IMG/VR virus record: IMGVR_UViG_3300045988_128825
Location: 1 to 45,316 of that record
Strand: one strand, 5' to 3'
Length of the DNA stretch: 45,316 nucleotides
From: a virus
The notes under the pieces: model-generated
What the model saw: only the letters and a program-made list of their open reading frames with translations
Databases searched by the model: none
Told to the model about the DNA's origin: nothing
Part shown: in pieces, positions 22,801 through 39,187 of the stretch
Numbering within the stretch: position 1 is the stretch's first letter
Layout: each line of letters opens with the position of its first letter
Position numbers and translations under genes: made by a program

Positions 22801-25800
22801 CGACTGAAAACAGATCAACAATATTATGATAGTATCGTAAATTCTCTCCAAGCAGAACAAAAAGAATTACAAGCGGCTATTGCGGCAGAAGAACAGACTA
22901 TTCAAGAGGCCTATAATAAAGAGTTAGAAACTATAGAGAAATCTAGAGGAGCAGGTCTTTTTAACAGTAATGCTATTACAGGAGATAATTTTTATGCAGC
23001 ATTATCAGAAGTTTTGGGTGGAGCGAAAGAAGCATCGATTGCTTTAAATAAGGCAGGAATTAAAGGCATTACTTATTACGGTGATCTTGATGGGCGTGCT
23101 TTTGTAGTATTTGATGATAAATCCATAAAGATTCTTAACAAGTATAATCAAAAAGTTAATAACGATAAGAAAGGTTCTATCACCTGGGACGAAGAAGGTA
23201 AAGCAATTATCAGCCTGTTTGAAGGTGCTGATATGAGCACTGTTATTCATGAAGCTGTCGGACATTACTTTATTGAGAATCTCATACGTGAAGGGGCACT
23301 CCCTAATGCTACAGAGCAGATGAAAAAAGACCGTCAGACTATGCTTGATTATGCAGGTGTAACTAAAGACTGGGATAGCTTGTCGCAGGAAGAAAAAACA
23401 GCAGCACATGAACGCTGGGCAGAGGCCGCAGAAACTTATATGCTTGAAGGCAAGGCGCCCTCAAAAGAGCTGCAGCCGGTATTTAACAGGTTCAAAAAAT
23501 GGCTGCTTGCTGTTTATAACGCCGTTTTTTCGGATAAGCGCAGTAAAAATGCTGTTCCAATCAACGATGAAGTAAGGCAGGTTTTTGACAGGATGCTGGC
23601 AAGTGAAGAGCAAATATCAGAAATGGAGCGTATCGACGGTTATTTTTCTGCTTTGCCAGATGTTGTATTAGATGCACTTTCAGAACCACGTAAGCAAATG
23701 CTGCGTAATTTTGCTGCTAAAGCTCACGATAAGGCAGTACAGTTATTAACAAAAGAAAGCCTTGTTAATTTCAATCAGGAGCGTAAAGACCGAATTCAAA
23801 AATATCGTGAAGATGTAGAGCCGCAGGTTAAAGAAGCGATTGCAAAACAGCCGTTATATATGGCTTCGGAGCAGATACTTGATATTGCATCTGATTTAAA
23901 AACGGCTAAGGGCATAGCTAACAGATATTTAGAAGGTAATTTTGATGAAAGTAAAATGGCAACTTTTGATATGATAGCTGAAGCTAATGGTTTTACTTCC
24001 GGTGACGAGCTGGCTAAAACGATTATGTCAGAACCATCTTTTAATGGTGCGGTTAACAGACATATTGATGAAATGGTGCAAGACGCCTTCCCTGATATTT
24101 ACAAAGAGAGAGGGCTTGCTGAAGAAGCTGCACGTGATGCTATGTATAATGACGAGAGCGGTCTTTTGATAAATACAGAAGCACAGCTTATTGAGGATAA
24201 AGCACAAGGTTTGTTGAAGGGTCAGCGTGATGCTGAAACTCTTAGAAAACTTGCTGTTGCACGCAAGCAAACAGCTAAAATCCAGGCACAGATGGACCTG
24301 CAGAATAGAGTAAAATTAAAGGAGGCGTTGAATACCCAAAAGTATATTACTGCAGAAAGAAACGCTGCGGCTAAAGCTGCTGTGGCATTGGAAAATGATG
24401 ATTATTCTGCTGCGGTCCGATATAAAAACGTCCAGGCGTTTAATCATGCTTGTGTAGTTGAAAGCGTAAGACTGCGTAATCAGTATGCTAAGTGGCAGAA
24501 TTATTTCAGGAAGCAGGCTAAAGCTAAAAGGGAAACGTGGGGTAATGAAAGAAACTTTATTCAAGCAGCAGCAATTATGGAAAGGTTCGGTTATAAGCGT
24601 AAAGATTATTCTGATTTTGAAAAGACAGAAACTTTATCAGACTATCTGAATGATATGGATGATCTTTATGACAATGTTGCAGTTGCTGATTGGATAATGG
24701 ATGAGAATGTTAGCATTACAAATCCTCGTGAACGTATGACGGCAAGCCAGCTTGAAGATATAGTAAATGCGCTTAAAAATATCAAAGCGATCGCTAAACA
24801 GGAAATGAGTATCAATGCTTTACAGAAAGGTGCTACCTATGCTGAATTTAAAGCTGAAGCACAGGAAACACTTAATAAGCTGAAAACTATCTGGAAACCG
24901 CAGGTTGGCGTTGCACAGCAGCCTACAGTAATGGAGAAGCTAAAAGCATCTTTACGCAGTACGGACAATCTTTTTGAAATGATGGATGACTGGCAGTATG
25001 GATTTTTCAGCAAACATTTTGGCGCAGCTATTCGAGAAGCGGCCGATAATGAAACAAGAAAAATTTTAGAATATGAGGAAAAAACAGCGCAGGCTTACAG
25101 GGAATGGCTGCCGGATAAAGCTGCAGAAAAGGCGGCCGATTATCAGGAAAAATATGACGAGCTAGGGACTTCTGTAGATAAGCACGTTTTATTAAAAATG
25201 CTTATGAATTTAGGCAACGAGAGCAGTGCCAGAGTATTGTGCAGCACTAGACCGGTAGGCTTTGAAAGTTCTGCCTTGTGGGTAGATGGCGATATCGTAC
25301 AGACTAAAATCAATTTACTTGACTTCTTAGGGCGTAATCTTACTGAAGCGGATATAAAATATGCACAGGCTAAGATAGACATTGCAGAGATGTACTGGTC
25401 TGAAATGGAAGCTCTTGAAACTCGTTGGACAGGGTTTAGTCCTAAGAAAGTAGAAGCGTCGCCTGTAGAGCTGACGTTATCAGACGGCAAGACTGTTGTT
25501 ATGCGTGGCGGTTATTTCCCGCTGATGCGTGACGGTGATACTGGTTCTAAACACGCTGGGCAAGAAGTTATTTCTGATACTGACCCCAGACAAGGACGCA
25601 ATATTAGAACAATGAGCACTAGACGAGGCCATTTAAAAGAACGTGTTAAGGCTAAATATCCTGTTAATCTAAAACGTGGAGCAGAGTTTAATGTTGCTAT
25701 GGATGCGATACATGATCTGTGTTTCCGTGAGGTTATGGGCGATTTCCGCAAAATTATGAACGATCAGGAAATGTATACTCTGATTAAAGAAAAATTAGGC

Positions 25801-26949
25801 CTGGCCGATTTCTCCGCCTTTAAAGAATATCTTGAACGTGCGGCAAATCCTCAAGGTACTAACAGCGGCTCTGTTGGTGAAAGCTGGATGGGCAGTGTTG
25901 CTAACTGGCTTAGGGCTCGTACTGTAAATGCTGCCATTATGCTTAACCTTAAAACTGCCGTTCAGAACTTGGGTAATCCCTTGCTTTATGGTAATGCTGT
26001 AGATGGTTTTGGATATAGTGATGTCGTTGCCGCTGTGAGCAATTACAGTATGAATATGCAACTTGCAGAGGGCTATAAATCGGCTAAGGAATTTGTTTAC
26101 AGTAAATCCCCTTGGATGAAAGAAAGGTCTGTGCTTCCTGATATTTCCCTGCGGGATATGAAAGAAATGGAAAGCCTGAATCCTATAGAAAAGAAAGCTG
26201 TTGAATTTGGCACAAGATTGCTGGTCGCTACTGATAATCTTTCTGCTATTCCGGTATGGATGCAGGCGTATGGTAAAAAAATAAGGGCTGGTGCAGGCGA
26301 AGCAGAAGCTGTGGACTTTGCCAATACGGTTATTAGACGTACACTTGGCAGCAGCAGAGTTACGGAGGTTGCACCGCTTTTGCGTGGCGGACCTATGCTT
26401 AAACTGTTTACTACCTTCCAAGGCTTCTTCAATACACAATATAATCAGTGGGCCAGAGAGTACAATATCTTCTTAAAAGAAAAAGACATAATGCGTCTTA
26501 CTTCGTTTGTGGGAGCTAAGTTTGTAATGTTTGTTTTTATAAACTTGATGTTGTCGCCCGAAGATCCATTTGAAGAAGATAAGGATGAATATCAAAAGAT
26601 ATCAAAAGAACTGCTTACTTACCCTATGAGTTTAGCCGGACCGGTTGGACAGGTTGGTAATGCTATCTGGAGCAGGGCTTTAGGCATGCAGACTTACGGG
26701 TATAGAATGACTGCAGTACAAGGCACGATAGAGCAAATGGAACGTGCTGCCGGTAAGGTACAAAAGGTTTACCAGGGCAAAGCAGATTATGACGAATTGG
26801 TTGAGCCTACTGCAACATTTGTTGGAACAGCATTAGGCGTGCCTGCACAGTTAAACAAATTATTCTTTAACGGATATGATATCTTGTTCAACGGTATGGA
26901 GCCGGAAGTTGGCGACATCTTTAGACGTAGGCCGAAAAAGGAACGGTAA
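19801..26949 (+). CDS. Giant (2382 aa) internal virion/ejection protein (gp16-like position) with several effector-like modules
   Basis: Single uninterrupted ORF; INHIFEKH module (~aa 611), FHGSPHKF...GWGLYFA module (~aa 761-790), HEAVGH (aa 1150-1155), hydrophobic segment FVGAKFVMFVFINLMLS near C-terminus. Confidence 0.75.
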   Translation: MARSVLYDVAAAGKFIPDDLKTKALQGANANNISLQMAARNPDYYLPKNFDYDWNKYEKIAPRTAEALKDPVLMSVAGTKAAEFWGEQENNWKSITALKNGFKNVARSGYGAVALLADLGADKKDVDLTTESKVFSADTIGRLLYAVGGDKLKTIGTEAKRIGGSEIFKPEEVKAETAAGQFYYDLLQNAPQLAAQVGVAISTGGWSAAAFMGSQIAGGQYLDLTEAGVSNDRARAAASLNAVAQSALEKVGLGKVMGAGARAAKIATMGGKAKEVFKTALTEGITEWIQEYPDAAAEIWAKNANLSTQEQILKFYQEFGEITKRGAYSGAIGAVFGGLGGSVSIAVDRNANRVMQEQAVRTAETMKNSKDVDITASKLVLNQTTEEKAYVDAETLFTYAQANPNLDVKDTFGIEVSELQAAAVRGEDIEMPMGTYCAAEAQNPGFFQAVSNNVAFEQGGYTEERARNKKALQSAYKKALENDEEFRTAVDTFRNELTEAGLNQKETGDVLAILTSRAMIANPDDPMQYFRDNPLSFKRVVSTPNGRYMQTKSANEKLLEDENNFSGIVDEYKAGTLNETKPYKVITTPLAINLAGGKILPVTIDGGRINHIFEKHFDGMTPDLLKQLPRAFADPIMVLDSYSGRKVVVLDLKDAQGSTIIVPLDLDVSRDRYKVNAINSAYGKGGANGTNYNWFIEHNIKKGRVAYVNKEKTAKWLQSDSSDSAIKGTDLDGFLNNSIPDENALRKRREEMQGYYQTAFHGSPHKFNKFNLENIGTGEGAQSHGWGLYFAKDRSVAGNRYRFIGKAADNSVTFGDRPIMELYDSLERQAGTISDNAEAQKYYDKMALIEDIEYKGSTVDINEENFSPAAVKWFKREIKPRLRIKGSLIEVDIPENNVLLDEQKTLAKQDENVKNLLKNFYKSLRSEQRSAVKEQLKQSVRKNETSEEYSEKINKTRKIDSTLSRLNKILKPLPDTAPKFIQRAKELSMSELKGEGYDIGRLKTDQQYYDSIVNSLQAEQKELQAAIAAEEQTIQEAYNKELETIEKSRGAGLFNSNAITGDNFYAALSEVLGGAKEASIALNKAGIKGITYYGDLDGRAFVVFDDKSIKILNKYNQKVNNDKKGSITWDEEGKAIISLFEGADMSTVIHEAVGHYFIENLIREGALPNATEQMKKDRQTMLDYAGVTKDWDSLSQEEKTAAHERWAEAAETYMLEGKAPSKELQPVFNRFKKWLLAVYNAVFSDKRSKNAVPINDEVRQVFDRMLASEEQISEMERIDGYFSALPDVVLDALSEPRKQMLRNFAAKAHDKAVQLLTKESLVNFNQERKDRIQKYREDVEPQVKEAIAKQPLYMASEQILDIASDLKTAKGIANRYLEGNFDESKMATFDMIAEANGFTSGDELAKTIMSEPSFNGAVNRHIDEMVQDAFPDIYKERGLAEEAARDAMYNDESGLLINTEAQLIEDKAQGLLKGQRDAETLRKLAVARKQTAKIQAQMDLQNRVKLKEALNTQKYITAERNAAAKAAVALENDDYSAAVRYKNVQAFNHACVVESVRLRNQYAKWQNYFRKQAKAKRETWGNERNFIQAAAIMERFGYKRKDYSDFEKTETLSDYLNDMDDLYDNVAVADWIMDENVSITNPRERMTASQLEDIVNALKNIKAIAKQEMSINALQKGATYAEFKAEAQETLNKLKTIWKPQVGVAQQPTVMEKLKASLRSTDNLFEMMDDWQYGFFSKHFGAAIREAADNETRKILEYEEKTAQAYREWLPDKAAEKAADYQEKYDELGTSVDKHVLLKMLMNLGNESSARVLCSTRPVGFESSALWVDGDIVQTKINLLDFLGRNLTEADIKYAQAKIDIAEMYWSEMEALETRWTGFSPKKVEASPVELTLSDGKTVVMRGGYFPLMRDGDTGSKHAGQEVISDTDPRQGRNIRTMSTRRGHLKERVKAKYPVNLKRGAEFNVAMDAIHDLCFREVMGDFRKIMNDQEMYTLIKEKLGLADFSAFKEYLERAANPQGTNSGSVGESWMGSVANWLRARTVNAAIMLNLKTAVQNLGNPLLYGNAVDGFGYSDVVAAVSNYSMNMQLAEGYKSAKEFVYSKSPWMKERSVLPDISLRDMKEMESLNPIEKKAVEFGTRLLVATDNLSAIPVWMQAYGKKIRAGAGEAEAVDFANTVIRRTLGSSRVTEVAPLLRGGPMLKLFTTFQGFFNTQYNQWAREYNIFLKEKDIMRLTSFVGAKFVMFVFINLMLSPEDPFEEDKDEYQKISKELLTYPMSLAGPVGQVGNAIWSRALGMQTYGYRMTAVQGTIEQMERAAGKVQKVYQGKADYDELVEPTATFVGTALGVPAQLNKLFFNGYDILFNGMEPEVGDIFRRRPKKER

Positions 26950-26952
26950 AAG

Positions 26953-26990
26953 AAAACCCCCTCGAATTTGAGGGGGTTTATATTTTCTCA
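26953..26990. terminator. Bidirectional intrinsic terminator between convergent genes
   Basis: AAACCCCCTC-GAATTT-GAGGGGGTTT flanked by A-run and T-run. Confidence 0.85.
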
Positions 26991-27272
26991 GAATCCATTG
27001 TTGTATCTATAAATTGCGTCATTTGCTTCACGGATAGCCGCAGCTTGTGCTTCTTGAATACGCTGGATATCATTGTTACAGTTTTCTACATATTTCTTTG
27101 CTTCTTCGACATAAAGTTCAACTTCATATTTGCTCGGATTGTAAGGTAAATATGAATTGAATTCTGGATACATTGACAAACTTAAATTAGATCCACCAAA
27201 AACATATGCAAACGCTATACTTGAACACCATAAAATAGAAATTATTGAAATTATTAGAATCCTTTTAAACAT
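26988..27272 (-). CDS. Secreted 94-aa protein (signal peptide + helical domain), function unknown
   Basis: MFKRILIISIISILWCSSIAFA/YV...; AAAGGAGAAG SD; A+T-rich island. Confidence 0.6.
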   Translation of the reverse strand: MFKRILIISIISILWCSSIAFAYVFGGSNLSLSMYPEFNSYLPYNPSKYEVELYVEEAKKYVENCNNDIQRIQEAQAAAIREANDAIYRYNNGF

Positions 27273-27302
27273 TAATTCTTCTCCTTTAATATTTGATTTG
27301 TT

Positions 27303-27713
27303 TTATATGCCTATATATTTTCCGTTGCCGTCACCAATTAAATTTAATAGGTGAAAAAATAATTCTTCACCTATAGATCCTGGAATAATAGGTTTTATTT
27401 TATAAAGTGGTTTATAAGAATCTTCTATTTGACCATTTTTATAGGCAATAATGTACAAATTTACTAAGGAAAAATCTTTTGTAAAAAAAGTAGTTTGTAT
27501 TAAAATCTGTTTATTTTCAGAAGGTTCTACTCTTGCGACCCAGGCGGTTGCTTTTGTATCGTCAAATGTGATTGTTCCTCTATCTATAAAATAACCAAAT
27601 TGGTTATCTGAATCTACCCAGCTCCAGCGAGCTGGATCTAAGTTATTGGCAGCACATAAATTTGTGATTAAAGAAAATACAAGAATTAAAAATAATAAAA
27701 TTGTTTTTTTCAT
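27303..27713 (-). CDS. Secreted 136-aa protein, function unknown
   Basis: Start at internal ATG 27713 (MKKTILLFLILVFSLITNLCA/ANN...) after AAGAAGGG SD; the track start 27833 would overlap the upstream gene. Confidence 0.6.
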   Translation of the reverse strand: MKKTILLFLILVFSLITNLCAANNLDPARWSWVDSDNQFGYFIDRGTITFDDTKATAWVARVEPSENKQILIQTTFFTKDFSLVNLYIIAYKNGQIEDSYKPLYKIKPIIPGSIGEELFFHLLNLIGDGNGKYIGI

Positions 27714-27754
27714 AATAACCCTTCTTTTATTATTTCGCACAATTAAGTTATTGG

Positions 27755-28324
27755 CTATATTCCTTTTACGCTGCCGGTAAAACCTATAGCAGAAGTTTGA
27801 CCTTTTGAATTTATCCCAAAAAATAATGCCCAAATCGGATTATATTTATTATGATAGGCATACCAATAGGATACAATTCCGTTATATTCTGCTTTAGTGT
27901 TTTTAATAATGGTTCCCGGAGTTCCGTATTTAGAAACAATTAAATTTTCTGAAGAACCAATTGATATTCCTCTTATAGTTGATACGTTGGGCTTAGTACA
28001 AATAATTTTATATATTTTACCATAGTCATCTTTGTTTATAGTTGGCTTATCATTATAATTTAAAGTTATAATACCATTTTCAAATAATATAGTTGCTTCA
28101 CTACTTCTGGCAACACCGTCACTATAAATATAATTTTCTGTCAGGATTTCGCCTAAAATGCGTGAAGCATCGTTAATAGTGGTATATTTTTCTGCTTGTA
28201 ACGGCCCGCAATTGATCAAGAATAAGTCATCTACATTAGTGCTACCAGCAGCAATAACTTTGGCAGATAAATTGAAAATAGATAAAAAGATAAAAGCAAA
28301 AATAACAAGTGTAATTTTTTTCAT
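27755..28324 (-). CDS. Secreted 189-aa protein, function unknown
   Basis: MKKITLVIFAFIFLSIFNLSAKVIAAG...; own extended -10 (TGATATAAT, plus coords 28349-28357) downstream of a terminator. Confidence 0.65.
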   Translation of the reverse strand: MKKITLVIFAFIFLSIFNLSAKVIAAGSTNVDDLFLINCGPLQAEKYTTINDASRILGEILTENYIYSDGVARSSEATILFENGIITLNYNDKPTINKDDYGKIYKIICTKPNVSTIRGISIGSSENLIVSKYGTPGTIIKNTKAEYNGIVSYWYAYHNKYNPIWALFFGINSKGQTSAIGFTGSVKGI

Positions 28325-28365
28325 AAATAATGCTCCTTTCTTGTCACAATTATATCACATTTATA

Positions 28366-28396
28366 AACGAAAATAAAACAGCCCGTAGGCTGTTTT
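28366..28396 (-). terminator. Intrinsic terminator after the XRE-family gene
   Basis: Minus strand: AAAACAGCC-TAC-GGGCTGTTTT followed by ATTTTCG. Confidence 0.65.
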
Positions 28397-28400
28397 AAAG

Positions 28401-29105
28401 TTAAGGTTTATTAAGGTATTCTTCTATGAATTTATTCAAGTCATTATCTTGATTGTCTACTATTATATATAAATCATCAATAATAGAATGTTTTTTTGAA
28501 TCTGTAATGAATTTAAACTGACCTGAAATAAAAGCAAAAAGTCCGATTACGACTTCACTGTCTCTGAAAAATTTGAAAAGCAAATAACCATTCTGTGAAA
28601 TAGGATCAATTGCGGTGAAATATGATTCCTGTTCTAAAAAATCATAATCATTAAATTGAGGGAAAAAGCTCAAAATAAAATCATTTATGATTGGATGTGT
28701 TGAATTAAAATGTTTGTTTTTATCCAAAGAAACCGGATTTCCATTGTCATCCAAAACCATTATTTCTTCTTTTAAGTCTTCTGGTATCTTTTTTATGAAT
28801 GGAACACTTTCAACTTTAGGGAAGATATCCCAGTGAACCAAAGAATTCTGTGTATCGTATATTAGTTTTTCTACTAATTTATAGACTTTAGAGTCAGACT
28901 TTGATTGAGTATCTAAAAGCAGATAATCTAAAGTTACATTAAATAATTCTACAAGTTTTTTTAATAATTCTGGATCGCTAGGAATACTTTTTCCCGTTTC
29001 GTAGTAACTAACAATTCTCGAGGATACTCCTAACTTTATGGCTAAATCTTTTTGGGTCATACCCTTGGCTTCACGGAGTTTCTTTAGATTTTCACTGAAA
29101 GACAT
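28401..29105 (-). CDS. XRE-family HTH regulator with ~165-aa C-terminal domain of unknown function (Mnt-analog position)
   Basis: MSFSENLKKLREAKGMTQKDLAIKLGVSSRIVSYYETGKSIP; ATG 29105 after AGGTGGTG (track start 29117 is GTG inside the SD). Confidence 0.8.
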   Translation of the reverse strand: MSFSENLKKLREAKGMTQKDLAIKLGVSSRIVSYYETGKSIPSDPELLKKLVELFNVTLDYLLLDTQSKSDSKVYKLVEKLIYDTQNSLVHWDIFPKVESVPFIKKIPEDLKEEIMVLDDNGNPVSLDKNKHFNSTHPIINDFILSFFPQFNDYDFLEQESYFTAIDPISQNGYLLFKFFRDSEVVIGLFAFISGQFKFITDSKKHSIIDDLYIIVDNQDNDLNKFIEEYLNKP

Positions 29106-29125
29106 ATTAATCACCACCTAAAGCA

Positions 29126-33392: not shown

Positions 33393-33692
33393 ATGGTTGA
33401 GATGGCAATGGCTTCTATAACAATCTTTAGCTTTTTATTTGGCATAGTAGGTTTTGTATTTAAGATTTGGATAATAAATCCTTTGTCTACGGCGATAGAG
33501 AACCTGCAAAAGACTGTTGACGCTTTAGCTAAGACTATTAATAGGGAGCAAGAACGTACAACAGATTTAAAAATAAAATTTGCTGAGATTGATCAGAGGG
33601 CAAAATCTGCACATAACAGAATTGACGAAGTTGGTGAACGGTTATTGCTGGTAGAAAACAAATGTAATAACTGTTCATGTAAGGATAAGTGA
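33393..33692 (+). CDS. N-terminal TM + coiled-coil protein of the lysis cassette
   Basis: ITIFSFLFGIVGFVFKIWII then helical region, CNNCSC near the C-terminus. Confidence 0.5.
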   Translation: MVEMAMASITIFSFLFGIVGFVFKIWIINPLSTAIENLQKTVDALAKTINREQERTTDLKIKFAEIDQRAKSAHNRIDEVGERLLLVENKCNNCSCKDK

Positions 33693-34036
33693 TATTTATG
33701 TTTGAGAAAATAAAAAACTTAATAGTGAGTGCCAGAAACAAAGTAGCCTCAATGTCGCCAAAAATAATGGCTGTCATTGTAGGCTATTTTATTGCAGTCG
33801 TTTTGCTGGTACTGACCTATTACGCTGCGTGGATGTATATGTGGTTGTGGTTGGATAAGATTGTTATGTCTGATCTTCTAGCACTGATAAGAGAGGTTAT
33901 AGGACCGGCTATGGTTGCATTTGTCACTTTCATAGCTACGAGTTTAGTAGATAAAAACGGGGACGGTGTCCCTGATCCATTTGAAAAGGAGGCAGAGAAT
34001 AATGGGGACAGTAACAAAAAGAATCACTTTAGATGA
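33689..34036 (+). CDS. Holin (putative)
   Basis: Two or three hydrophobic segments (IMAVIVGYFIAVVLLVLTYYAAWMYMWLWL, GPAMVAFVTFIATSLV) and charged C-terminus; immediately precedes the endolysin; start GTG 33689 or ATG 33698. Confidence 0.6.
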   Translation: MIFMFEKIKNLIVSARNKVASMSPKIMAVIVGYFIAVVLLVLTYYAAWMYMWLWLDKIVMSDLLALIREVIGPAMVAFVTFIATSLVDKNGDGVPDPFEKEAENNGDSNKKNHFR

Positions 34037-34795: not shown

Positions 34796-35203
34796 TTGAA
34801 AGAAGGGCAGAAAGTGAATGAAGAAAAACAAATCAGGTATAGCAAGTATCTTGTTATTAGTTTTGCCCTTAGTGCTGTGCTTATCATTTTCTTTAAATTG
34901 TTTTGCGGAGGAACTTCCGGAAACAATAACGATGTCCAGGGAACAGTTCAACGAATTGCAGACGATAATAAACAGACAGGAAAATCTGTTGATAGGGCTA
35001 TCGAACACGTTGGAACTGCAGCAGATGAACTCGAACGAGCTGAAGAAGCTAATCGAAGAGCAGCGTTTATCTTATCAGAAGATAAGGAGCGAGCTAATGC
35101 TTGCGCAGGAATCATTGTCGAACTCCAAAAAAACAATAGCAGAGCAAAACAAATCCTTGCAGACGTTGAGCGTTCAAATGAAACAGGAGAAGTCCAGAAG
35201 TGA
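34796..35203 (+). CDS. Alternative-frame ORF fully overlapping 34818..35279 (N-terminal TM + charged helical region)
   Basis: 135 codons open in the -1 frame relative to 34818; YLVISFALSAVLIIFFKLF then ...VDRAIEHVGTAADELERAEEANRRAA...; G-rich first and A/T-rich third codon positions like the rest of the genome. Confidence 0.35.
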   Translation: MKEGQKVNEEKQIRYSKYLVISFALSAVLIIFFKLFCGGTSGNNNDVQGTVQRIADDNKQTGKSVDRAIEHVGTAADELERAEEANRRAAFILSEDKERANACAGIIVELQKNNSRAKQILADVERSNETGEVQK

Positions 35204-35279
35204 ATTAAAGCAGAGGCAGAAGGCCTTTTGGGGATTTGCAGGAGGGGTATTAGTAGGAGCTATAGCAGCGAGCAGGTGA
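34818..35279 (+). CDS. Signal-peptide + coiled-coil + C-terminal TM protein (153 aa)
   Basis: MKKNKSGIASILLLVLPLVLCLSFSLNCFA/EE..., heptad-like Leu/Gln region, C-terminal FWGFAGGVLVGAIAA; ends 4 nt before the next gene. Confidence 0.55.
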   Translation: MKKNKSGIASILLLVLPLVLCLSFSLNCFAEELPETITMSREQFNELQTIINRQENLLIGLSNTLELQQMNSNELKKLIEEQRLSYQKIRSELMLAQESLSNSKKTIAEQNKSLQTLSVQMKQEKSRSELKQRQKAFWGFAGGVLVGAIAASR

Positions 35280-35283
35280 TTAT

Positions 35284-35526
35284 ATGGATACTTGCCGTTT
35301 GCAGGCAAGAGATTGGCTTTCGCAGTCCACACGAAAGGAATTTGAAGCAATCATTTCAGAAGCTAAACTAACGCCGCGGCAAATAGAAATTATAGAACTC
35401 AAATTTATTCACGATCTTAAAAACTATCAAATAGCAATGAAAATAGATACGTCAGTGCAAACGGTCGAAAGAGATCTGCAGCAGGCATATAATTCGGTCA
35501 AGAAAGCATTACAGGCAGTCACATAA
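35284..35526 (+). CDS. 80-aa sigma-70 region-4-like HTH protein
   Basis: LTPRQIEIIELKFIHDLKNYQIAMKIDTSVQTVERDLQQAYNSVKKAL resembles sigma region 4 / LuxR-type HTH. Confidence 0.6.
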   Translation: MDTCRLQARDWLSQSTRKEFEAIISEAKLTPRQIEIIELKFIHDLKNYQIAMKIDTSVQTVERDLQQAYNSVKKALQAVT

Positions 35527-35550
35527 TATTGTGGCTGCCTTATTTTTTAT
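35513..35550 (+). terminator. Intrinsic terminator
   Basis: AGGCAGTCACA-TAATAT-TGTGGCTGCCT + TATTTTTTAT. Confidence 0.75.
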
Positions 35551-35638
35551 GCCTATATTAGGGAATTATGAGGGAATGTTGACGGATTATAAGAGCTGAT
35601 TTAGGCGACAATATAAGTAAGAAACGGAGGCGATAACA

Positions 35639-36187
35639 ATGTATGTAAATCCTTATGCTCCTGTTAATCCAGCAATGATGGGAGTAACTCAGCAACGTTT
35701 AAATAATTATCAAGCTCAAATGCCGCAGATACCGGCATATCAGCAACAGCAGTTTGTTCCACAACCGCCTATGCCCCTGATGATGAAAGGGCGTACAGTT
35801 GCAAGTTTAGACGAAGTAAAGGCTGCCCAAATTGATTTAGATGGAAGCCTGACATATTTCCCTTGTCCGGCCGATAATTGTATTTACGCAAAAGCTATTG
35901 ATATGAATGGTATGCCGGTTATCCAAACTTATAAACTTTCGTTTGAAAAAGAGGCTATACCTAAACGTTATGCCGATGCAGAAGTAGTAGAGGCCCTGCA
36001 GCAAAAAGTAAGCTCATTAGAGCGTTATATGAATATGAAAGGGGAGAATATAAATGCAAATGAATCCGTTCACAATGATGCAAATATTCAATCAGCTTCG
36101 CAGCAACCCAAACCCGATGGAAGCAATGCAGAAAATGCTGGGGAACAATCCCCTGTTTGGGCGCGCAATGGAAATGGCGCAAGGTAA
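35639..36187 (+). CDS. 182-aa protein with Gln/Pro/Met-rich N-terminus, function unknown
   Basis: MYVNPYAPVNPAMMGVTQQRLNNYQAQMPQIPAYQQQQFVPQPPMP... then globular-looking GRTVASLDEVKAAQIDLDGSLTYFPCPADNCIYAKAIDMNGMPVIQTYKL; last 134 nt overlap the next gene. Confidence 0.55.
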   Translation: MYVNPYAPVNPAMMGVTQQRLNNYQAQMPQIPAYQQQQFVPQPPMPLMMKGRTVASLDEVKAAQIDLDGSLTYFPCPADNCIYAKAIDMNGMPVIQTYKLSFEKEAIPKRYADAEVVEALQQKVSSLERYMNMKGENINANESVHNDANIQSASQQPKPDGSNAENAGEQSPVWARNGNGAR

Positions 36188-36293
36188 GTCTCCAGAACAG
36201 TTAAAAGAAACTGTTATGAATCTCGCCCAGCAACGTGGTATTGATCCTCAACAGGCTCAACAGCTTTTATCGCAATTTGGTATTAAAATCTGA
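36054..36293 (+). CDS. 79-aa helical protein, function unknown
   Basis: AAAGGGGAG SD 7 nt upstream; in-frame TAA immediately before ATG; MQMNPFTMMQIFNQLRSNPNPMEAMQKMLGNNPLFGRAMEMAQGKSPEQLK... Confidence 0.6.
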   Translation: MQMNPFTMMQIFNQLRSNPNPMEAMQKMLGNNPLFGRAMEMAQGKSPEQLKETVMNLAQQRGIDPQQAQQLLSQFGIKI

Positions 36294-36344
36294 CCGGTGG
36301 CCACCAAAGGATTTTAAACAATAAATCTAAAGGAGATGTTCTAT

Positions 36345-36977
36345 ATGACTATGGAAGGTACTGGCGTAATGCCTGTATACGATTTGAATAACCGTACCGC
36401 AGCAGCAGACGGCGCAGGTTTTGGCGGCGGCTGGATGTGGGTAGTAATGTTATTCTTTCTGCTTGCCTGGGGCGGCGGTGGATTCGGTGGTTTCGGAGGC
36501 GGCGCCAATGGTGCTGTAAATACTTTGACTAATGAATTTCTCTATACCAATCTGAATAATACTTTAAATCAAGGTTTTACTCAAGTAGCAAACCAGAGCT
36601 TTGGCATTCAAAAAGACCTGTGTCAAGGTTTTAGCGGTGTACAATCTGCTATTGCTGAAAGCCGTTTTGCCGCTCAGCAATGCTGCTGCGAAACCAATCG
36701 TAACATTGATGCGGTTCGTGCAGAAAACTACAAGAACACTTGTGAGATCACGACTGCAATTCATGCAGAAGGTGAAGCAACTCGTGCTTTGATTACTGCT
36801 AACGTAATGCAGGAATTGCGCGATCAGCTACAAGCTGCTCAACTGCAACTTGGTAACGTTGCTCAAACTACCAACATTATCAACGCAGTACGCCCGTTCC
36901 CGCAACCGGCTTATATCACTTGTAGCCCTTATACGGCTATGAATGGCTATGGCTGCAACGGCTGTGGTAACTGCTAA
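36345..36977 (+). CDS. Membrane protein: poly-Gly-flanked TM, helical region with CCC, C-terminal GYGCNGCGNC
   Basis: ATG 36345 after AAAGGAG; GFGGGWMWVVMLFFLLAWGGGGFGGFGGG; QQCCCETNRNIDAVRAENYKNTCEITTAIHAEGE; function unknown. Confidence 0.65.
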   Translation: MTMEGTGVMPVYDLNNRTAAADGAGFGGGWMWVVMLFFLLAWGGGGFGGFGGGANGAVNTLTNEFLYTNLNNTLNQGFTQVANQSFGIQKDLCQGFSGVQSAIAESRFAAQQCCCETNRNIDAVRAENYKNTCEITTAIHAEGEATRALITANVMQELRDQLQAAQLQLGNVAQTTNIINAVRPFPQPAYITCSPYTAMNGYGCNGCGNC

Positions 36978-37000
36978 TATCCGCTGAATGCGTGACTAAG

Positions 37001-37036
37001 AAACAGGGGAGCTGTCACGCTTCCCTGTTTTAATTT
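37001..37036 (+). terminator. Intrinsic terminator
   Basis: AAACAGGGGAG / CTTCCCTGTTT (11 bp incl. one G-T) + TTTTAATTT. Confidence 0.7.
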
Positions 37037-37053
37037 AAGGAGATGAATTATAA

Positions 37054-37405
37054 ATGGCAACTTGTAATTGCAGAACTATATTGACCACGTAGGATAGCGC
37101 AGGATATTCCTTCTACTGCTACAAATCTTATGCCAGTAGTTATTAAAATCGGTACTGGTGCTACTTTGTATAATGTAAATCGTAAATGCGGACATCATTT
37201 ATATGCAAATCAGGTAAGAACGCGCCGTAATTATTCTTTGCTGGTAGCTGCTGACAGTGCAACCTTTGTTCTTGAATGCGGCTATATTGCTGCCTGCAAT
37301 TGTGGTACTGTAACCGGACTGCCTGTAGCAACAGCAGAACCTGCAGAAGATAATACTGAAGTTCAGACCGTAAAAAATACTAAGGCGGTGAGCAAGGATG
37401 CATAA
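37054..37405 (+). pseudogene. Cys-pair protein (about 116 aa if joined) interrupted after codon 12 by TAG and a +1 frame change
   Basis: AAGGAG SD, ATG 37054, MATCNCRTILTT then TAG 37090; frame +1 is open from 37085 (PRRIAQDIPSTATNLMPVVIKIGTGATLYNVN...YIAACNCGTV...); ATG 37130 of the track ORF has no SD. Confidence 0.45.
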
Positions 37406-37859
37406 GTACGAAGATTATATTGATATCGTGGACGGCGATGAAATGAAAGAAGATGAAATAGATTGTATCGTCTGTGGAGCTTTGGAAAAACTTAAAGCAC
37501 ACGATGAAGATGATTATGAAGCTGTAATGATGAAAATTCATTGCGTAGCTCATGGACCACACTTCGATGAGCATCTTGCTAAAAAAGCCGTTTCGGAAAT
37601 GAAAAATGTTGACGGCACTGCTGGCGAGCATTGGACGTTAGAAGAAACAACCCGTGTCATGGATCAAAATGGTATTAAAGCCAATAAGTATGATTGGTAT
37701 TACTTATTGAATATGTTACATAGCGATTATTCTCACCTATGGGGAGAAGATGTTGCTCAGTATGTTAAATTTGCTAAAGCGTACATCAATGATCCTGATG
37801 CTGGTACAGGTAAGGTATTTTATCTGTGGAGAGCTGGGAAGCATCATCATCATAAATAA
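37398..37859 (+). CDS. 153-aa putative metal-binding protein ending in HHHHK
   Basis: CIVC...HCVAHGPHF...GEHWTLEETT...DWYYLLNMLHSDY...GKHHHHK; function unknown. Confidence 0.65.
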   Translation: MHKYEDYIDIVDGDEMKEDEIDCIVCGALEKLKAHDEDDYEAVMMKIHCVAHGPHFDEHLAKKAVSEMKNVDGTAGEHWTLEETTRVMDQNGIKANKYDWYYLLNMLHSDYSHLWGEDVAQYVKFAKAYINDPDAGTGKVFYLWRAGKHHHHK

Positions 37860-37870
37860 AGATTGCATAA

Positions 37871-37904
37871 AATAACCTCCCCAATTATGAGGAGGTTATT
37901 TTGC
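37871..37904 (+). terminator. Hairpin terminator closing the accessory cassette
   Basis: AATAACCTCC / GGAGGTTATT perfect 10-bp stem, then TTTG. Confidence 0.6.
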
Positions 37905-38122
37905 ATTCGTCAAAAATTCGTCAAAAATAAGTTGCAGAAAGGTGTTAAAACCTGTATTTTAATTGTGACGTTAATATGTCATAAATGGCATAATAGCTAC
38001 ATTCTTCTGGAATTGGCTATAATTGTTTCATTAAATAGCACTTTATGATATAATATTATAATTGCCAAAGAACGACTTGTAAAGCGGGATTTATACAAAT
38101 TCGTCAAAAATTCGTCAAAAAT
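37905..38122. repeat. Candidate attP: two identical 24-nt direct repeats (each a doublet of TTCGTCAAAAA) bracketing a 170-bp A+T-rich core, next to the integrase gene
   Basis: ATTCGTCAAAAATTCGTCAAAAAT at 37905-37928 and 38099-38122; integrase stop at 38126. Confidence 0.55.
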
Positions 38123-38125
38123 TTT

Positions 38126-39187
38126 CTAAAAAAAATTTGAGAGACGCTTCTGTGCATTTTCTCTCATTTCATCAGTGTAGTGTACATATGCCTTTAAAAC
38201 TGTTTCAACTGTATCTCCCAACAATGCTGCGACCGTTTTAATATCAAAGCCACTGCTAAGTAATGTTGTAGCATAAGTATGCCTGAAGTCATGAATACTT
38301 GTGTCATCTTTTGTGTAAAGAGAAACTCTTTTTATAGAGTGATATGTCACATTCCAAAATACCATATCGCTGATGTGACGAGGATATTTATTCTTGTATT
38401 CAATTAAAACCGTTTGTAATCGCATAGGTATAGGTACAGTTCGATAAGAGTTATTGCTTTTTAATTCTTGTAGGGTCATAATATTTCTATTTGTAGCAAC
38501 CATTTGTCGTTCTACTTTTAATGTTCCTGCATTAAAATCAATATCAGACCATTTCAAACCTGTTATCTCGCCAACCCTAAGACCTGCGAAAGCGGCGATA
38601 CAACACGCTGTATATAAAGTATAGTTCTTGGATTTTAAACGTGCCAGAACAGCTTCTAAACGTTCTTTGGAAAGGGCGTTTATTTTTCTTTGGCCTTTTA
38701 TTTTTAACGGATGTATCCCTATCGTAGGATCTTTAGTTATAAGTTCGTATGGAGATACCGCTCTTTTAAAAATAGTTTTTAGTTTTACGAGATACAAATT
38801 GGCGGTGTTTGCTTTCACTGGTAAAGAGTTAAATATTGATTGTATGTCGCTATGCGTTATGTCTACCAGATGCATATCTTTTAGTTCTGAAAAGGCTTTG
38901 ATAGCGTGCTGGTATCCGAGTAGAGTGTTGTATGCTATGCTCCTTCTTATATCATTAAGATACATTGCGGAAAATTCACCAAAGGTTATTCTTGCAGTGC
39001 TATTGTCCATATATATTGGCGCATTTGCTTTAACTTCTTCTAGTAACTTATCGCCTGCTATTTTTGCTTCTCTTTTGGTTTTAAATCCTTGTTTTGATTT
39101 TTGCTTCCAACAACCACGATTATCTTTATAGGATAATATTACTTGAAATCCTTTATCTTTTTCTCTAAAAGTGAAATTATACTCCAT
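38126..39187 (-). CDS. int: Tyrosine integrase with N-terminal arm-type DNA-binding domain
   Basis: 353 aa; GLRVGEI (Arg), HDFRHTYATTLL (His-x-x-Arg), AYVHYT (Tyr); N-terminal FREKDKGFQVILSYKD...GFKTKREAK. Confidence 0.9.
   Translation of the reverse strand: MEYNFTFREKDKGFQVILSYKDNRGCWKQKSKQGFKTKREAKIAGDKLLEEVKANAPIYMDNSTARITFGEFSAMYLNDIRRSIAYNTLLGYQHAIKAFSELKDMHLVDITHSDIQSIFNSLPVKANTANLYLVKLKTIFKRAVSPYELITKDPTIGIHPLKIKGQRKINALSKERLEAVLARLKSKNYTLYTACCIAAFAGLRVGEITGLKWSDIDFNAGTLKVERQMVATNRNIMTLQELKSNNSYRTVPIPMRLQTVLIEYKNKYPRHISDMVFWNVTYHSIKRVSLYTKDDTSIHDFRHTYATTLLSSGFDIKTVAALLGDTVETVLKAYVHYTDEMRENAQKRLSNFF

What the first reader, a model, noticed from the sequence alone, without database searches (positions are those of the whole stretch)
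35284..37859. Terminator-punctuated cassette of unassignable Cys/Gly/Gln-rich proteins headed by a sigma-region-4-like HTH, next to attP: best candidate for an undescribed system
The cassette sits between the lysis genes and attP, the classic moron slot. It contains:
- An 80-aa sigma-region-4-like HTH, followed by a terminator.
- A 182-aa protein with a Gln/Pro/Met-rich N-terminus and a CPADNC-containing globular part.
- A 79-aa helical protein.
- A 210-aa protein with one TM helix embedded in poly-Gly (GFGGGWMWVVMLFFLLAWGGGGFGGFGGG), a long helical region with a CCC triplet, and a C-terminal GYGCNGCGNC. A terminator follows.
- A protein of about 116 aa starting MATCNC and containing AACNC, which is interrupted.
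- A 153-aa protein with CxxC, HCxxH and a natural HHHHK tail. A terminator follows.

I see no enzymatic motif and recognise no family. The shared features are paired cysteines, metal-ligand-like residues, Gly-rich and Gln-rich low complexity, and one membrane anchor. Together with the internal terminators, which would grade expression, these suggest a co-functioning envelope-associated, disulfide- or metal-cross-linked assembly or a peptide-like product under a dedicated regulator. This is speculation.
Basis: inference. Interest (0 to 1): 0.75.

Follow-up and report, generated by a model that had tools for sequence, protein, structure and literature searches.

The report
Conserved phage membrane stalk-and-head gene module
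The six small genes are one slightly damaged copy of a gene module of unknown function that recurs in the same order in many gut phages, usually just after the lysis genes, and that seems to build a membrane-anchored protein complex nobody has studied.

Summary
The interrupted gene E is broken by a 77-nt deletion relative to intact 139-142 aa orthologues.

The genes are not a random collection of ORFans. The order A (sigma-region-4/GerE-like HTH) | terminator | B-C-D-(E or E2)-(F or G/I/H) recurs in about 70 loci. These include Negativicutes and Clostridia prophages, cultured C. perfringens phages and Suoliviridae crAss-like phages. The D family has about 1,900 clusters at 50% identity.

- D is a Trp-bounded single-pass membrane protein with a helical stalk, an invariant CCC..C cluster and a Gly/Tyr/Cys tail.
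- The gene after D is always a small Cys-capped beta-rich protein. In other phages it is replaced by a BclA-C/C1q-like head (PDB 9H38, E=3e-6).
- F is Pfam DUF7841.

No protein matches a family of known function, a defence system or a solved structure, apart from the HTH and the E2 head. The module usually lies just downstream of holin/endolysin genes.

Best reading (confidence 0.35): a late, membrane-anchored, Cys/metal-stapled stalk-and-head complex that works with the lysis machinery. A virion accessory fibre and a lysogenic-conversion or exclusion cassette remain live rivals. The function is uncharacterised.

The parts
34818..35279 (+). Context: last lysis-region ORF (153 aa). It has a signal peptide, a coiled coil and a C-terminal TM helix, so it is spanin-like. 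Its stop codon lies 5 nt before the start of A.
   Evidence: orthologues in L066/L067
35284..35526 (+). A: 80-aa stand-alone sigma-70 region-4 / GerE-like HTH. It has no region 2.
   Evidence: Pfam Sigma70_r4_2 1.5e-7, GerE 0.0024; NCBIfam ECF and BotR tails; found upstream of B in about 46 loci
35513..35540 (+). Intrinsic terminator that overlaps the stop codon of A.
   Evidence: an equivalent terminator follows A in most related loci
35541..35638 (+). A-B intergenic region. It holds TTTTATGCC..TAGGG (35545-35563), a -10-like TATAAG (35612-35617) and the Shine-Dalgarno sequence of B. It is presumed to carry the promoter of the B-F unit, and it is an insertion hot spot in relatives.
   Evidence: sequence inspection; promoter not proven
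35639..36187 (+). B: 182 aa. It has a Q/P/M-rich N-terminus, a conserved ~50-aa globular core (GR.V....EA.A..ID.DGS...F......IY.K.....G......Y), a short coiled coil and a low-complexity tail. phrog_21718.
36054..36293 (+). C: 79 aa, Met/Gln-rich and helical. It overlaps the tail of B in the +1 frame.
   Evidence: dN/dS 0.08
36345..36977 (+). D: 210 aa. It has an acidic N-tail, a Trp-bounded TM helix between poly-Gly linkers, two long helices with the invariant CCCETNRNID..C cluster, RPFPxPAYITCSPY and a Gly/Tyr/Cys tail. phrog_16490. It is the core of the module.
37000..37031 (+). Terminator-like hairpin after D. It is not conserved in more distant loci.
   Evidence: (16-nt D-E gap in L002)
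37054..37405 (+). E: pseudogene of the Cys-capped beta-rich partner. A 12-codon head (37054-37092) is followed by a +1-frame remainder (ATG at 37130, 91 aa). It is broken by a 77-nt deletion.
37398..37859 (+). F: 153 aa, DUF7841, helical, His/Cys-rich. Its start overlaps the stop of E.
37869..37902 (+). Terminator hairpin that closes the module.
37905..38133 (.). Context: attP-like region bounded by tandem 11-nt ATTCGTCAAAA repeats. The integrase lies next to it at 38126-39187 (-).

Best explanation
This is one copy of a widespread, self-contained phage gene module. Its E gene is broken here.

Shown:
- The order is A | terminator | B-C-D-E-F.
- D is a membrane protein with a helical stalk and conserved Cys clusters.
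- The slot after D always holds a small Cys-capped beta-rich protein. It is either the E type seen here or a BclA-C/C1q-like head.
- B, C, E and F show no N-terminal signal peptide by inspection of their sequences.
- The module lies next to the lysis cassette in very different phage lineages.

Inferred:
- D inserts N-out/C-in.
- Late in infection its cytoplasmic stalk recruits the E or E2 head through the Cys-rich ends, by shared metal sites or by disulfides once oxidised.
- B, C and F act as assembly or partner factors.
- The complex works together with the holin/endolysin machinery. It either controls or times lysis, or it performs an envelope step at lysis. It is not a lysogenic-conversion gene set.
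- A, a sigma-region-4/GerE-like HTH made as the last product of the lysis operon, may switch on the B-F unit.
For: Synteny:
- jackhmmer on all ORFs of 73 loci gives the same order almost without exception. BLAST shows the same. So do the gene calls in metagenome contigs.
- The order holds in cultured C. perfringens phages and in Suoliviridae crAss-like phages, as holin-X-F-D-E.

Family size and selection:
- More than 6,694 D homologues at the 90% clustering level. 1,938 clusters at 50% identity.
- dN/dS is 0.08-0.11 for B, C and D.

Anatomy of D:
- Invariant C113, C115, C133, C193 and C207, and the CETNRNID motif.
- The AF2 secondary structure shows a TM helix at 29-42 and helices at 58-114 and 119-182. 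This comes from a low-confidence model, so only the secondary structure is used.
- In 114 family representatives the N-tail averages 27 aa with 0.8 positive and 3.5 negative charges. The C-side flank is about neutral. This favours N-out/C-in.

Head:
- The E2 profile matches F-BclA-CTD (9H38) at 3.2e-6 and the BclA C-terminal domains at 1.6e-4 to 5e-4 (identity of 9H38 from PMC12357932).
- E has a nearly invariant Cys in an N-terminal M-x-C motif and usually ends in Cys-rich tails; the E2 consensus also begins M-x-C.

Link to lysis:
- Among 129 ORFs taken from the 3.5 kb upstream of the module, the commonest Pfam families are endolysin and holin domains: Amidase_2 x7, GH25 x3, holin_4_1 x3, M15_3 x2, C39_2 x2, Amidase_3, M23 and ELLD.
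- In B. fragilis phage BF503P2, F alone sits next to a membrane protein (holin-like by its hydrophobic segments), an M15-type peptidase-like ORF and a spanin-like ORF, all read from sequence and all annotated hypothetical.
- The start of A lies 5 nt after the stop codon of the last lysis-region ORF.
Against: - No protein of the module is homologous to any holin, antiholin, spanin or endolysin.
- The position 'after lysis' is also where accessory genes collect in siphophages, so adjacency is weak evidence.
- In Dulem virus 39 the module follows replication genes and an integrase. In C. perfringens phage 17DYC it lies 2.7 kb beyond A.
- The window already has plausible holin, endolysin and spanin-like genes.
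- The composition of D and E (N/Q/T/S/G-rich, few charges) looks more like extracellular or virion fibre proteins than cytoplasmic ones.
- The topology rests on a charge rule alone. The contact between D and E is not shown. The D tail type does not covary with the E or E2 type.
- E is inactivated here, so the module is dispensable, at least in a prophage.
- The structure models were poor: pLDDT 40 for D and 60 for E.
Confidence: 0.35

Rival explanations
1. Virion accessory fibre or adhesin. D is a trimeric helical shaft and E or E2 is its exchangeable distal knob, as in BclA or phage fibre heads. F, and possibly B and C, are assembly chaperones. All are made without signal peptides, assembled in the cytoplasm and released with, or on, the particle at lysis.
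For: - E2 is homologous to the BclA and F-BclA C1q-like head that tips fibres.
- A conserved stalk paired with a swapped, faster-evolving head (E at 58% identity against D at 93%, window versus L067) is the pattern seen in receptor-binding fibres.
- The composition is fibre-like.
- In crAss-like phages the module sits between lysis genes and virion structural genes on the same strand.
- In phage eiAU a distant D-like gene follows the tail-fibre genes.
- One protein, P0278, joins a tail-fibre-like N-terminus to the C-terminal domain of D and is followed by E and F.
Against: - D carries a textbook Trp-bounded TM helix, which is not expected in a soluble fibre.
- The module lies outside the head and tail gene blocks. 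By the organism labels of the BFVD matches it occurs in podo-, myo-, sipho- and crAss-type phages. That argues against a fixed docking site on the tail.
- P0278 is a singleton on a 2.9-kb contig with a truncated E. It has no relative in IMG/VR. It is what a deletion between the tail-fibre gene and D would produce.
- No proteomic data exist.
Confidence: 0.25
2. Lysogenic-conversion or superinfection-exclusion cassette (moron). It is an independently transcribed unit at the prophage end. It is expressed in lysogens and places a membrane complex that blocks incoming phage or alters the cell surface.
For: - It has its own terminator-bounded unit beside attP and the integrase in the window.
- It sits at the very end of the prophages in L066 and L067, next to host genes.
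- D is a membrane protein.
- The A-B gap takes up other morons: a HigBA-like pair and Bro/ANT.
Against: - It is also present where no integrase is adjacent, and in crAss-like phages, which are not known to be temperate.
- A module of five or six genes with near-invariant motifs across hosts of different phyla is unlike known exclusion genes. Those are short, diverse and host-specific.
- No PADLOC match.
Confidence: 0.2
3. A peptide-product (RiPP or bacteriocin-like) cluster or a metal-handling cluster under a TcdR/BotR-like regulator, with the products released through the holin.
For: - Cys-X-Cys tails and a His-rich F.
- A gives weak hits to BotR and ECF sigma tails.
- The position next to a holin recalls the TcdE and UviB loci. 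This is recalled knowledge, not tested here.
Against: - No modifying enzyme, protease, transporter or immunity gene occurs in any locus.
- The Cys-rich segments are the ends of conserved 120-230 aa proteins, not leader-core peptides.
- A lacks sigma region 2.
Confidence: 0.04
4. Unrelated hypothetical ORFs whose shared composition is coincidental.
For: Only A and F (plus E2 elsewhere) match any curated family. The structure models were poor.
Against: Conserved order in about 70 loci across very distant phages, purifying selection, and translational coupling or overlap between genes.
Confidence: 0.02

Closest known systems
BclA / F-BclA exosporium fibres of Bacillus and Clostridia (C1q/TNF-like C-terminal head on a stalk anchored to a Cys-rich surface layer; late coat genes under GerE)
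   Same: - The E2 variant of the partner gene is homologous to the BclA-C head.
- The proteins show no signal peptide and would be assembled in the cytoplasm and exposed only by lysis.
- The termini are Cys-rich, some segments are Gly- or Gln-rich, and a GerE-sized HTH stands at the head.
   Different: - The stalk is alpha-helical, not collagen. It is a separate polypeptide and it has a TM anchor.
- The window itself carries the unrelated E type (hhalign probability 3.7%).
- The module is phage-encoded, and many hosts (Negativicutes, Bacteroides) do not sporulate.
Phage lysis accessory proteins: i-spanin Rz, and T4 holin T with RI/RIII
   Same: - The position is beside holin and endolysin genes.
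- D resembles them in outline: about 200 aa, a single N-terminal TM helix, a long helical domain and conserved Cys. That Rz dimers are disulfide-linked and that T has one TM helix and a large C-terminal domain is recalled knowledge.
   Different: - No sequence or profile similarity.
- No lipoprotein partner.
- The predicted topology is the opposite of that of Rz and T.
- The module is present in phages of monoderm hosts, which need no spanin.
TNF-superfamily ligands
   Same: Membrane anchor, stalk and a jelly-roll head that is trimeric in its relatives, in the D plus E2 versions.
   Different: The design is split over two genes, the predicted orientation is the opposite, and no homology exists beyond the C1q/TNF fold of E2.
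Stand-alone sigma-region-4 / LuxR-GerE type phage regulators (ArpU/RinA-like late activators, Q-like antiterminators)
   Same: A is an HTH of this class. It shows weak hits to Phage_antitermQ and DUF1492/ArpU-like models.
   Different: At 80 aa it is much shorter. It lies after the lysis genes rather than before terS. No target site has been shown.
Pfam DUF7841 / PHROGs 16490, 21718 and 38431
   Same: F, D and B are members.
   Different: These are catalogue entries with no function. Their linkage as one module is not mentioned in any paper of the library searched.

Membership tests
Sigma-70 family sigma factor | Region 4 HTH that binds the -35 element | tested here: met
   A: Sigma70_r4_2, 31.4 bits against a cut-off of 25.7, E=1.5e-7
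Sigma-70 family sigma factor | Region 2 (core binding and -10 recognition) | tested here: not met
   A is 80 aa. All matches cover only the last ~60 positions of the sigma models. A is therefore not a sigma factor.
Pfam DUF7841 | Score above the curated cut-off | tested here: met
   F: 97.3 bits against 25.2. All 120 listed homologues carry PF25223.
BclA_C / C1q-TNF jelly-roll head | Profile match to the BclA C-terminal domain | tested here: not met
   Met for the E2 variant in other loci (9H38 at 3.2e-6, BclA at 1.6e-4). The window's E type shows no relation to E2, to the PDB or to Pfam.
Two-component spanin (Rz/Rz1) | i-spanin with an N-terminal TM helix and a periplasmic coiled coil, plus an embedded or adjacent outer-membrane lipoprotein gene with a lipobox | tested here: not met
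   D has the TM helix and the helices. However, the charge rule predicts N-out/C-in, none of the module proteins inspected begins with a signal peptide plus lipobox, and the module occurs in phages of monoderm C. perfringens.
Holin | Small membrane protein with a charged C-terminus, or homology to a holin family | tested here: not met
   No holin Pfam, PHROG or NCBIfam hit for D. Separate holin-like ORFs are present at 33393-34036.
Known anti-phage defence system | Match to PADLOC models | tested here: not met
   No match for B, C, D, E, F, E2 or H. Only the HTH of A matches an HTH part of a CARF model.
RiPP / bacteriocin cluster | Precursor plus a modifying enzyme, protease or exporter | tested here: not met
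   No such gene lies within the conserved module in any of about 70 loci.
Virion structural protein | Presence in purified particles | not testable with these tools
   No proteomic data were found for any carrier phage.
Moron / lysogenic conversion gene | Own promoter and terminator, expression from the prophage, found only in temperate phages | tested here: inconclusive
   The terminators are present. A promoter is only suggested. Expression is unknown. The module also occurs in crAss-like genomes and in loci with no integrase next to it.

The most novel reading that the evidence does not exclude
The module is an undescribed machine that is widespread among tailed phages of the gut. A membrane-anchored stalk (D) carries an exchangeable sensor head (E or E2) on the cytoplasmic face. 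It couples some intracellular cue, for example the state of virion assembly, redox state or metal status read by the Cys clusters, to holin triggering. That would make it a new class of lysis-timing control shared by crAss-like, Bacteroides, Clostridia and Negativicutes phages.
Probability: 0.15. Interest if true: 0.85.

Novelty: categorically new. Interest (0 to 1): 0.62.

Why it matters
The D family alone comprises about 1,900 clusters at 50% identity. It travels with the same partners in crAss-like phages, Bacteroides-associated phages, C. perfringens phages and prophages of Negativicutes. These include some of the most abundant viruses of the human gut. No member has a known function.

If the module controls or completes lysis, it would add a component to a process thought to be well understood. 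If it is a fibre or adhesin, it would be a portable specificity device with a BclA-like head. In either case it converts a block of 'hypothetical proteins' into a defined unit that can be deleted. Cultured carriers exist (C. perfringens phages 17DYC, CPD1 and HMD-PC1), so direct experiments are possible.

Tried and rejected
- Pfam, PHROGs, NCBIfam and PADLOC scans of all six proteins. The only results were the HTH, DUF7841 and function-less PHROGs.
- Profile searches of the D, E, E2, F and B alignments against PDB sequences. Only E2 matched.
- AlphaFold2 of E (pLDDT 60.6) and D (pLDDT 40.3) with shallow alignments. Foldseek of E against the PDB gave nothing. Against BFVD it gave only uncharacterised phage proteins, including a crAss-like DUF7841 protein. 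Foldseek of D against BFVD gave nothing.
- My initial idea that E is an Ena/DUF3992-type spore-appendage subunit. No Pfam, PDB or fold support, so I dropped it.
- The idea that E and E2 are distant homologues. hhalign probability is 3.7%.
- The idea that the N-terminus of D is a YjcZ/TIGR01732 tiny TM protein. No NCBIfam hit.
- The idea that F or the H proteins are ferritin-like or related to sigma region 2. No profile support.
- The tail-fibre-D fusion P0278 as evidence for a virion role. I downgraded it. It is a singleton on a 2.9-kb contig, its E is truncated, no relative exists in IMG/VR, and it is consistent with a deletion.
- A search for a second copy of the A-B intergenic motif elsewhere in the window, as a test of a shared late promoter. 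Only one weak, uninformative match appeared, near 27300.
- Covariation between the D tail type and the E or E2 type. None was seen.
- Literature searches for DUF7841, PF25223, PF18573 with phage, C. perfringens phage proteomics and Suoliviridae lysis. No description of the module was found.


Full report
**1. Observation**

The ORF list and the raw sequence confirm all six reading frames.

- A (35284-35526, 80 aa) passes Pfam's cut-off for Sigma70_r4_2 (31.4 bits against 25.7, E=1.5e-7). It has weaker hits to the GerE, ECF-tail, BotR-tail and antiterminator-Q models. It has no region 2.
- The stop codon of A lies inside a strong hairpin followed by a U-run (35513-35540). Comparable hairpins follow D (37000-37031) and F (37869-37902). 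Their energies are -19.6, -20.9 and -21.3 kcal/mol, with z-scores from -4.1 to -6.7.
- B, C, D and F have good Shine-Dalgarno sequences. D most likely starts at 36345 (210 aa), as its homologues do.
- Cys makes up 4.3% of D and 4.4% of the E remnant, against 0.84% in the long ORFs of the window. F has 13 His. The first 50 residues of B hold 10 Q, 9 P and 7 M.

C overlaps the last 134 nt of B in another frame, and the same overlap is kept in L066, L067 and L002. F is a member of Pfam DUF7841 (E=8.5e-28).

**2. The interrupted gene**

MATCNCRTILTT is followed by a stop codon. The rest of E is open in the +1 frame. An alignment with two close relatives shows a 77-nt deletion in the window. This deletion removes about 26 codons and shifts the frame. 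The intact orthologues are 142 and 139 aa. E is therefore a pseudogene here, or at best an N-terminally truncated product from the ATG at 37130, which has no Shine-Dalgarno sequence.

**3. The genes form one conserved module**

A search with D returned more than 6,694 homologues, none with a Pfam domain and none with an informative name. A full HMM scan of 1.84 billion cluster representatives found 1,938 clusters at E<=1e-3 and 889 at E<=1e-10. Nearly all are 190-250 aa.

I fetched loci around D homologues from metagenomes, from 55 genome contigs and from GenBank phages. I then ran BLAST and jackhmmer on all their ORFs. Almost every locus shows this order:

A | B - C - D - (E or E2) - (F, or G-I-H)

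This holds down to 26-40% identity in D.

- A lies directly upstream of B in about 46 loci. A hairpin terminator usually lies between them.
- In some relatives the A-B gap has taken up other genes: a Gp49/HTH (HigBA-like) pair, a Bro/ANT antirepressor, an integrase, or 2.6 kb of small genes.
- Between the window and L067, dN/dS is 0.11 for B, 0.08 for C, 0.09 for D and 0.26 for the E remnant.

Chance, or unrelated ORFans, is excluded.

**4. Which phages carry it**

Assignments that rest on long contigs or isolates point to these hosts: Phascolarctobacterium (545-kb contig), Megasphaera (205 kb), a Dialister isolate (2.5 Mb) and a Clostridia MAG (443 kb).

Cultured carriers are C. perfringens phages 17DYC, CPD1, HMD-PC1, PMQ04 and XP41-N3.

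In Suoliviridae crAss-like phages cr53_1 and cr10_1 the order is holin - X - F - D-like - E-like. The depositors' labels there are 'RNA polymerase sigma factor/ubiquitin-like protein' for F and 'spike protein/glycoprotein' for D.

A distant D-like gene that keeps the CCCET motif follows the tail-fibre genes of Edwardsiella phage eiAU.

F alone sits beside a membrane protein that looks holin-like from its hydrophobic segments, an M15-type peptidase-like ORF and a spanin-like ORF in B. fragilis phages. These three identifications are my reading of the sequences; the record calls them hypothetical.

Many other MAG labels probably reflect phage contigs placed in the wrong bin, and I do not rely on them.

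**5. Position**

In the window the module follows tail-fibre genes, two small membrane proteins, an Amidase_2 endolysin and a protein with a signal peptide, a coiled coil and a C-terminal TM helix.

I took 129 ORFs from the 3.5 kb upstream of the module in the non-redundant loci. The most frequent Pfam families among them are lysis enzymes and holins: Amidase_2 x7, GH25 x3, Phage_holin_4_1 x3, Peptidase_M15_3 x2, C39_2 x2, Amidase_3, M23 and ELLD. Tail-fibre domains follow.

What lies downstream varies. It can be an integrase and attP (the window), host DNA at a prophage end (L066, L067), an SNF2 helicase with DnaD and DnaB (L001-L005), or virion genes (cr53_1).

The constant neighbour is therefore the lysis cassette, not attP. 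The start of A lies 5 nt after the stop codon of the last lysis-region ORF, so A reads as the last gene of that operon. B-F form a separate unit.

**6. Anatomy of the proteins**

D has five parts:
- a conserved acidic N-tail (G..PVYD.N, or LS.AD..A in other members);
- a hydrophobic helix bounded by Trp and flanked by poly-Gly;
- a stretch of variable length in which x-G-F-x units recur (my reading of the sequences);
- an invariant block Q.CCCETNRNID..R.EN...C, then RP.P.PAY.TCSPY;
- a Gly/Tyr/Asn/Cys tail.

AF2 gives only secondary structure for D: a TM helix at 29-42 and helices at 58-114 and 119-182, at pLDDT 40.

In 114 representatives the N-tail averages 0.8 positive and 3.5 negative charges. 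The C-side flank is about neutral. By the charge-difference rule this predicts N-out/C-in. By inspection, B, C, E, E2 and F show no N-terminal signal peptide.

E is beta-rich. It has a nearly invariant Cys at position 3-4, often as CxxC, and it usually ends in CC, CxC or CCCC.

E2 occupies the same slot in about a third of the loci. Its profile matches PDB 9H38 (3.2e-6) and the BclA C-terminal domains (1.6e-4 to 5e-4), with C1q and TNF ligands below them. 9H38 is the C1q-like head of the F-BclA tip fibrillum of Bacillus endospore appendages (PMC12357932). E and E2 are not detectably related. All four combinations of E or E2 with F or H occur.

B has a Q/P/M-rich N-terminus, a conserved core of about 50 aa and a short coiled coil. 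C is Met-rich and helical. F is helical, with conserved H, W, D and Y positions.

None of B, C, D, E or F matches a solved structure or a defence model.

**7. How it most likely works**

Shown:
- a conserved module;
- a membrane-anchored helical protein with conserved Cys clusters;
- an exchangeable small head-type partner;
- soluble partners with no signal peptide by inspection;
- linkage to lysis genes;
- a transcription-unit boundary between A and B.

Inferred:
- D sits N-out/C-in;
- its cytoplasmic stalk binds E or E2 through the Cys-rich ends, by shared metal sites in a reducing cytoplasm or by disulfides after exposure to oxygen;
- B, C and F assist or complete the complex;
- the complex acts with the lysis machinery.

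I give the lysis-linked reading 0.35. The reasons for preferring it are these. The association with lysis genes recurs in crAss-like phages, B. fragilis phages and Firmicutes phages. F keeps that position even without D. The near-invariance of D across hosts from different phyla argues for a target that is universal or internal to the phage, rather than a host-specific surface.

The main rival (0.25) is a virion accessory fibre with E or E2 as its knob. Its support is the BclA-like head, the conserved-stalk and variable-head pattern, the fibre-like composition and the placement in crAss-like phages. The points against it are the textbook TM helix and the module's presence in different phage morphotypes (by the organism labels of the BFVD matches). 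The single tail-fibre-D fusion (P0278) is best explained as a deletion between the tail-fibre gene and D. The same 2.9-kb contig has a truncated E, and nothing similar exists in IMG/VR.

A lysogenic-conversion or exclusion cassette (0.20) fits the window and the prophage ends. It does not fit the crAss-like phages or the loci that lack an adjacent integrase.

**8. Comparison with what is known**

The module is not a sigma factor (no region 2). It is not a spanin pair (no lipoprotein, the opposite predicted topology, and presence in phages of monoderm hosts). It is not a holin, a defence system or a RiPP cluster.

Its nearest analogies are by design rather than descent. One is BclA-type fibres, which have a head on a stalk fixed to a surface and are assembled in the cytoplasm among Cys-rich partners. 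The other is TNF ligands, which combine a TM anchor, a stalk and a jelly-roll trimer.

The families are catalogued (DUF7841; phrog_16490, phrog_21718 and phrog_38431) but have no function. No paper in the library searched mentions DUF7841 or PF25223.

**9. Verdict**

The module is real, widespread and uncharacterised. I class it as categorically new in the sense that it cannot be filed under any described system. Its mechanism remains inference. It could still turn out to be an unusual accessory fibre or a lysis helper.

Noticed in passing
window 36054-36187: The 3' tail of B and the 5' part of C are read from the same DNA in two frames (134 nt). The overlap is kept in L066, L067 and L002. It is reduced to 1-8 nt in L006 and in C. 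perfringens phage 17DYC.
   Followed up: partly
window 26988-29117 (- strand): A low-GC island (0.28-0.30 against about 0.41) of four reverse-strand ORFs. It includes an HTH regulator (238 aa) and two ORFs with no PHROG hit. It is inserted between the 2382-aa tail-region gene and an Ant antirepressor, and it looks like a separately acquired accessory island.
   Followed up: partly
window 19801-26949: A single 2382-aa ORF (phrog_9880, unknown function) lies downstream of the tail genes.
   Followed up: no
window 33393-33692: A 99-aa protein with an N-terminal TM helix and a coiled coil. It gives a weak hit to an Rz-like spanin PHROG. It ends in CNNCSC, a Cys motif much like the CNGCGNC tail of D.
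   Followed up: no
window 34818-35279; L066 4049-4579: The last lysis-region ORF has a signal peptide, a coiled coil and a C-terminal TM helix, so it is unimolecular-spanin-like but has no clear lipobox. Its counterpart in L066 and L067 ends instead in ...GMWLTYQY, which resembles an outer-membrane beta-signal. Both fit a diderm (Negativicutes) host.
   Followed up: partly
window 37905-37939 and 38088-38133: Two clusters of tandem 11-nt ATTCGTCAAAA repeats flank about 150 bp between F and the integrase gene. They are plausible arm-type integrase sites of attP. No tRNA gene is present in the window.
   Followed up: partly
window 35545-35563; L009, L023, L030, L031, L054 and others: In several distant loci the terminator after A runs straight into TTTTTATGCC(C), and a -10-like (C)TATAAGT lies a few bases before the Shine-Dalgarno sequence of B. 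This may be a conserved regulatory layout. It occurs only once in the window.
   Followed up: partly
L066 4872-7170; L067 6493-7125; L071 2253-3596; L064 3630-6290: The A-B intergenic region is an insertion hot spot. Different relatives carry there a Gp49/HTH toxin-antitoxin-like pair, a Bro-N/ANT antirepressor, an integrase, or a run of small genes.
   Followed up: partly
L073 (Bacteroides phage BF503P2) 4872-7525: A DUF7841 (F) homologue occurs without detectable B, C, D or E. It lies directly upstream of a membrane protein that looks holin-like, an M15-type peptidase-like ORF and a spanin-like ORF (my reading of the sequences; all are annotated hypothetical).
   Followed up: partly
L070 (crAss-like cr53_1): Translation with table 11 shows many in-frame stops in the late genes, including the module genes. 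This is consistent with stop-codon recoding in this crAss-like lineage.
   Followed up: no
L072 263-1936 (P0278): A 557-aa protein joins a tail-fibre-like N-terminus and coiled coil to the C-terminal domain of D. A truncated E and then F follow it. It is probably a deletion chimera and it is a singleton.
   Followed up: yes
one search hit list (E homologues): E homologues in public assemblies have unusually variable lengths, and many are fused to DUF7841. This suggests frequent frameshifts or deletions in this gene, or assembly errors.
   Followed up: no
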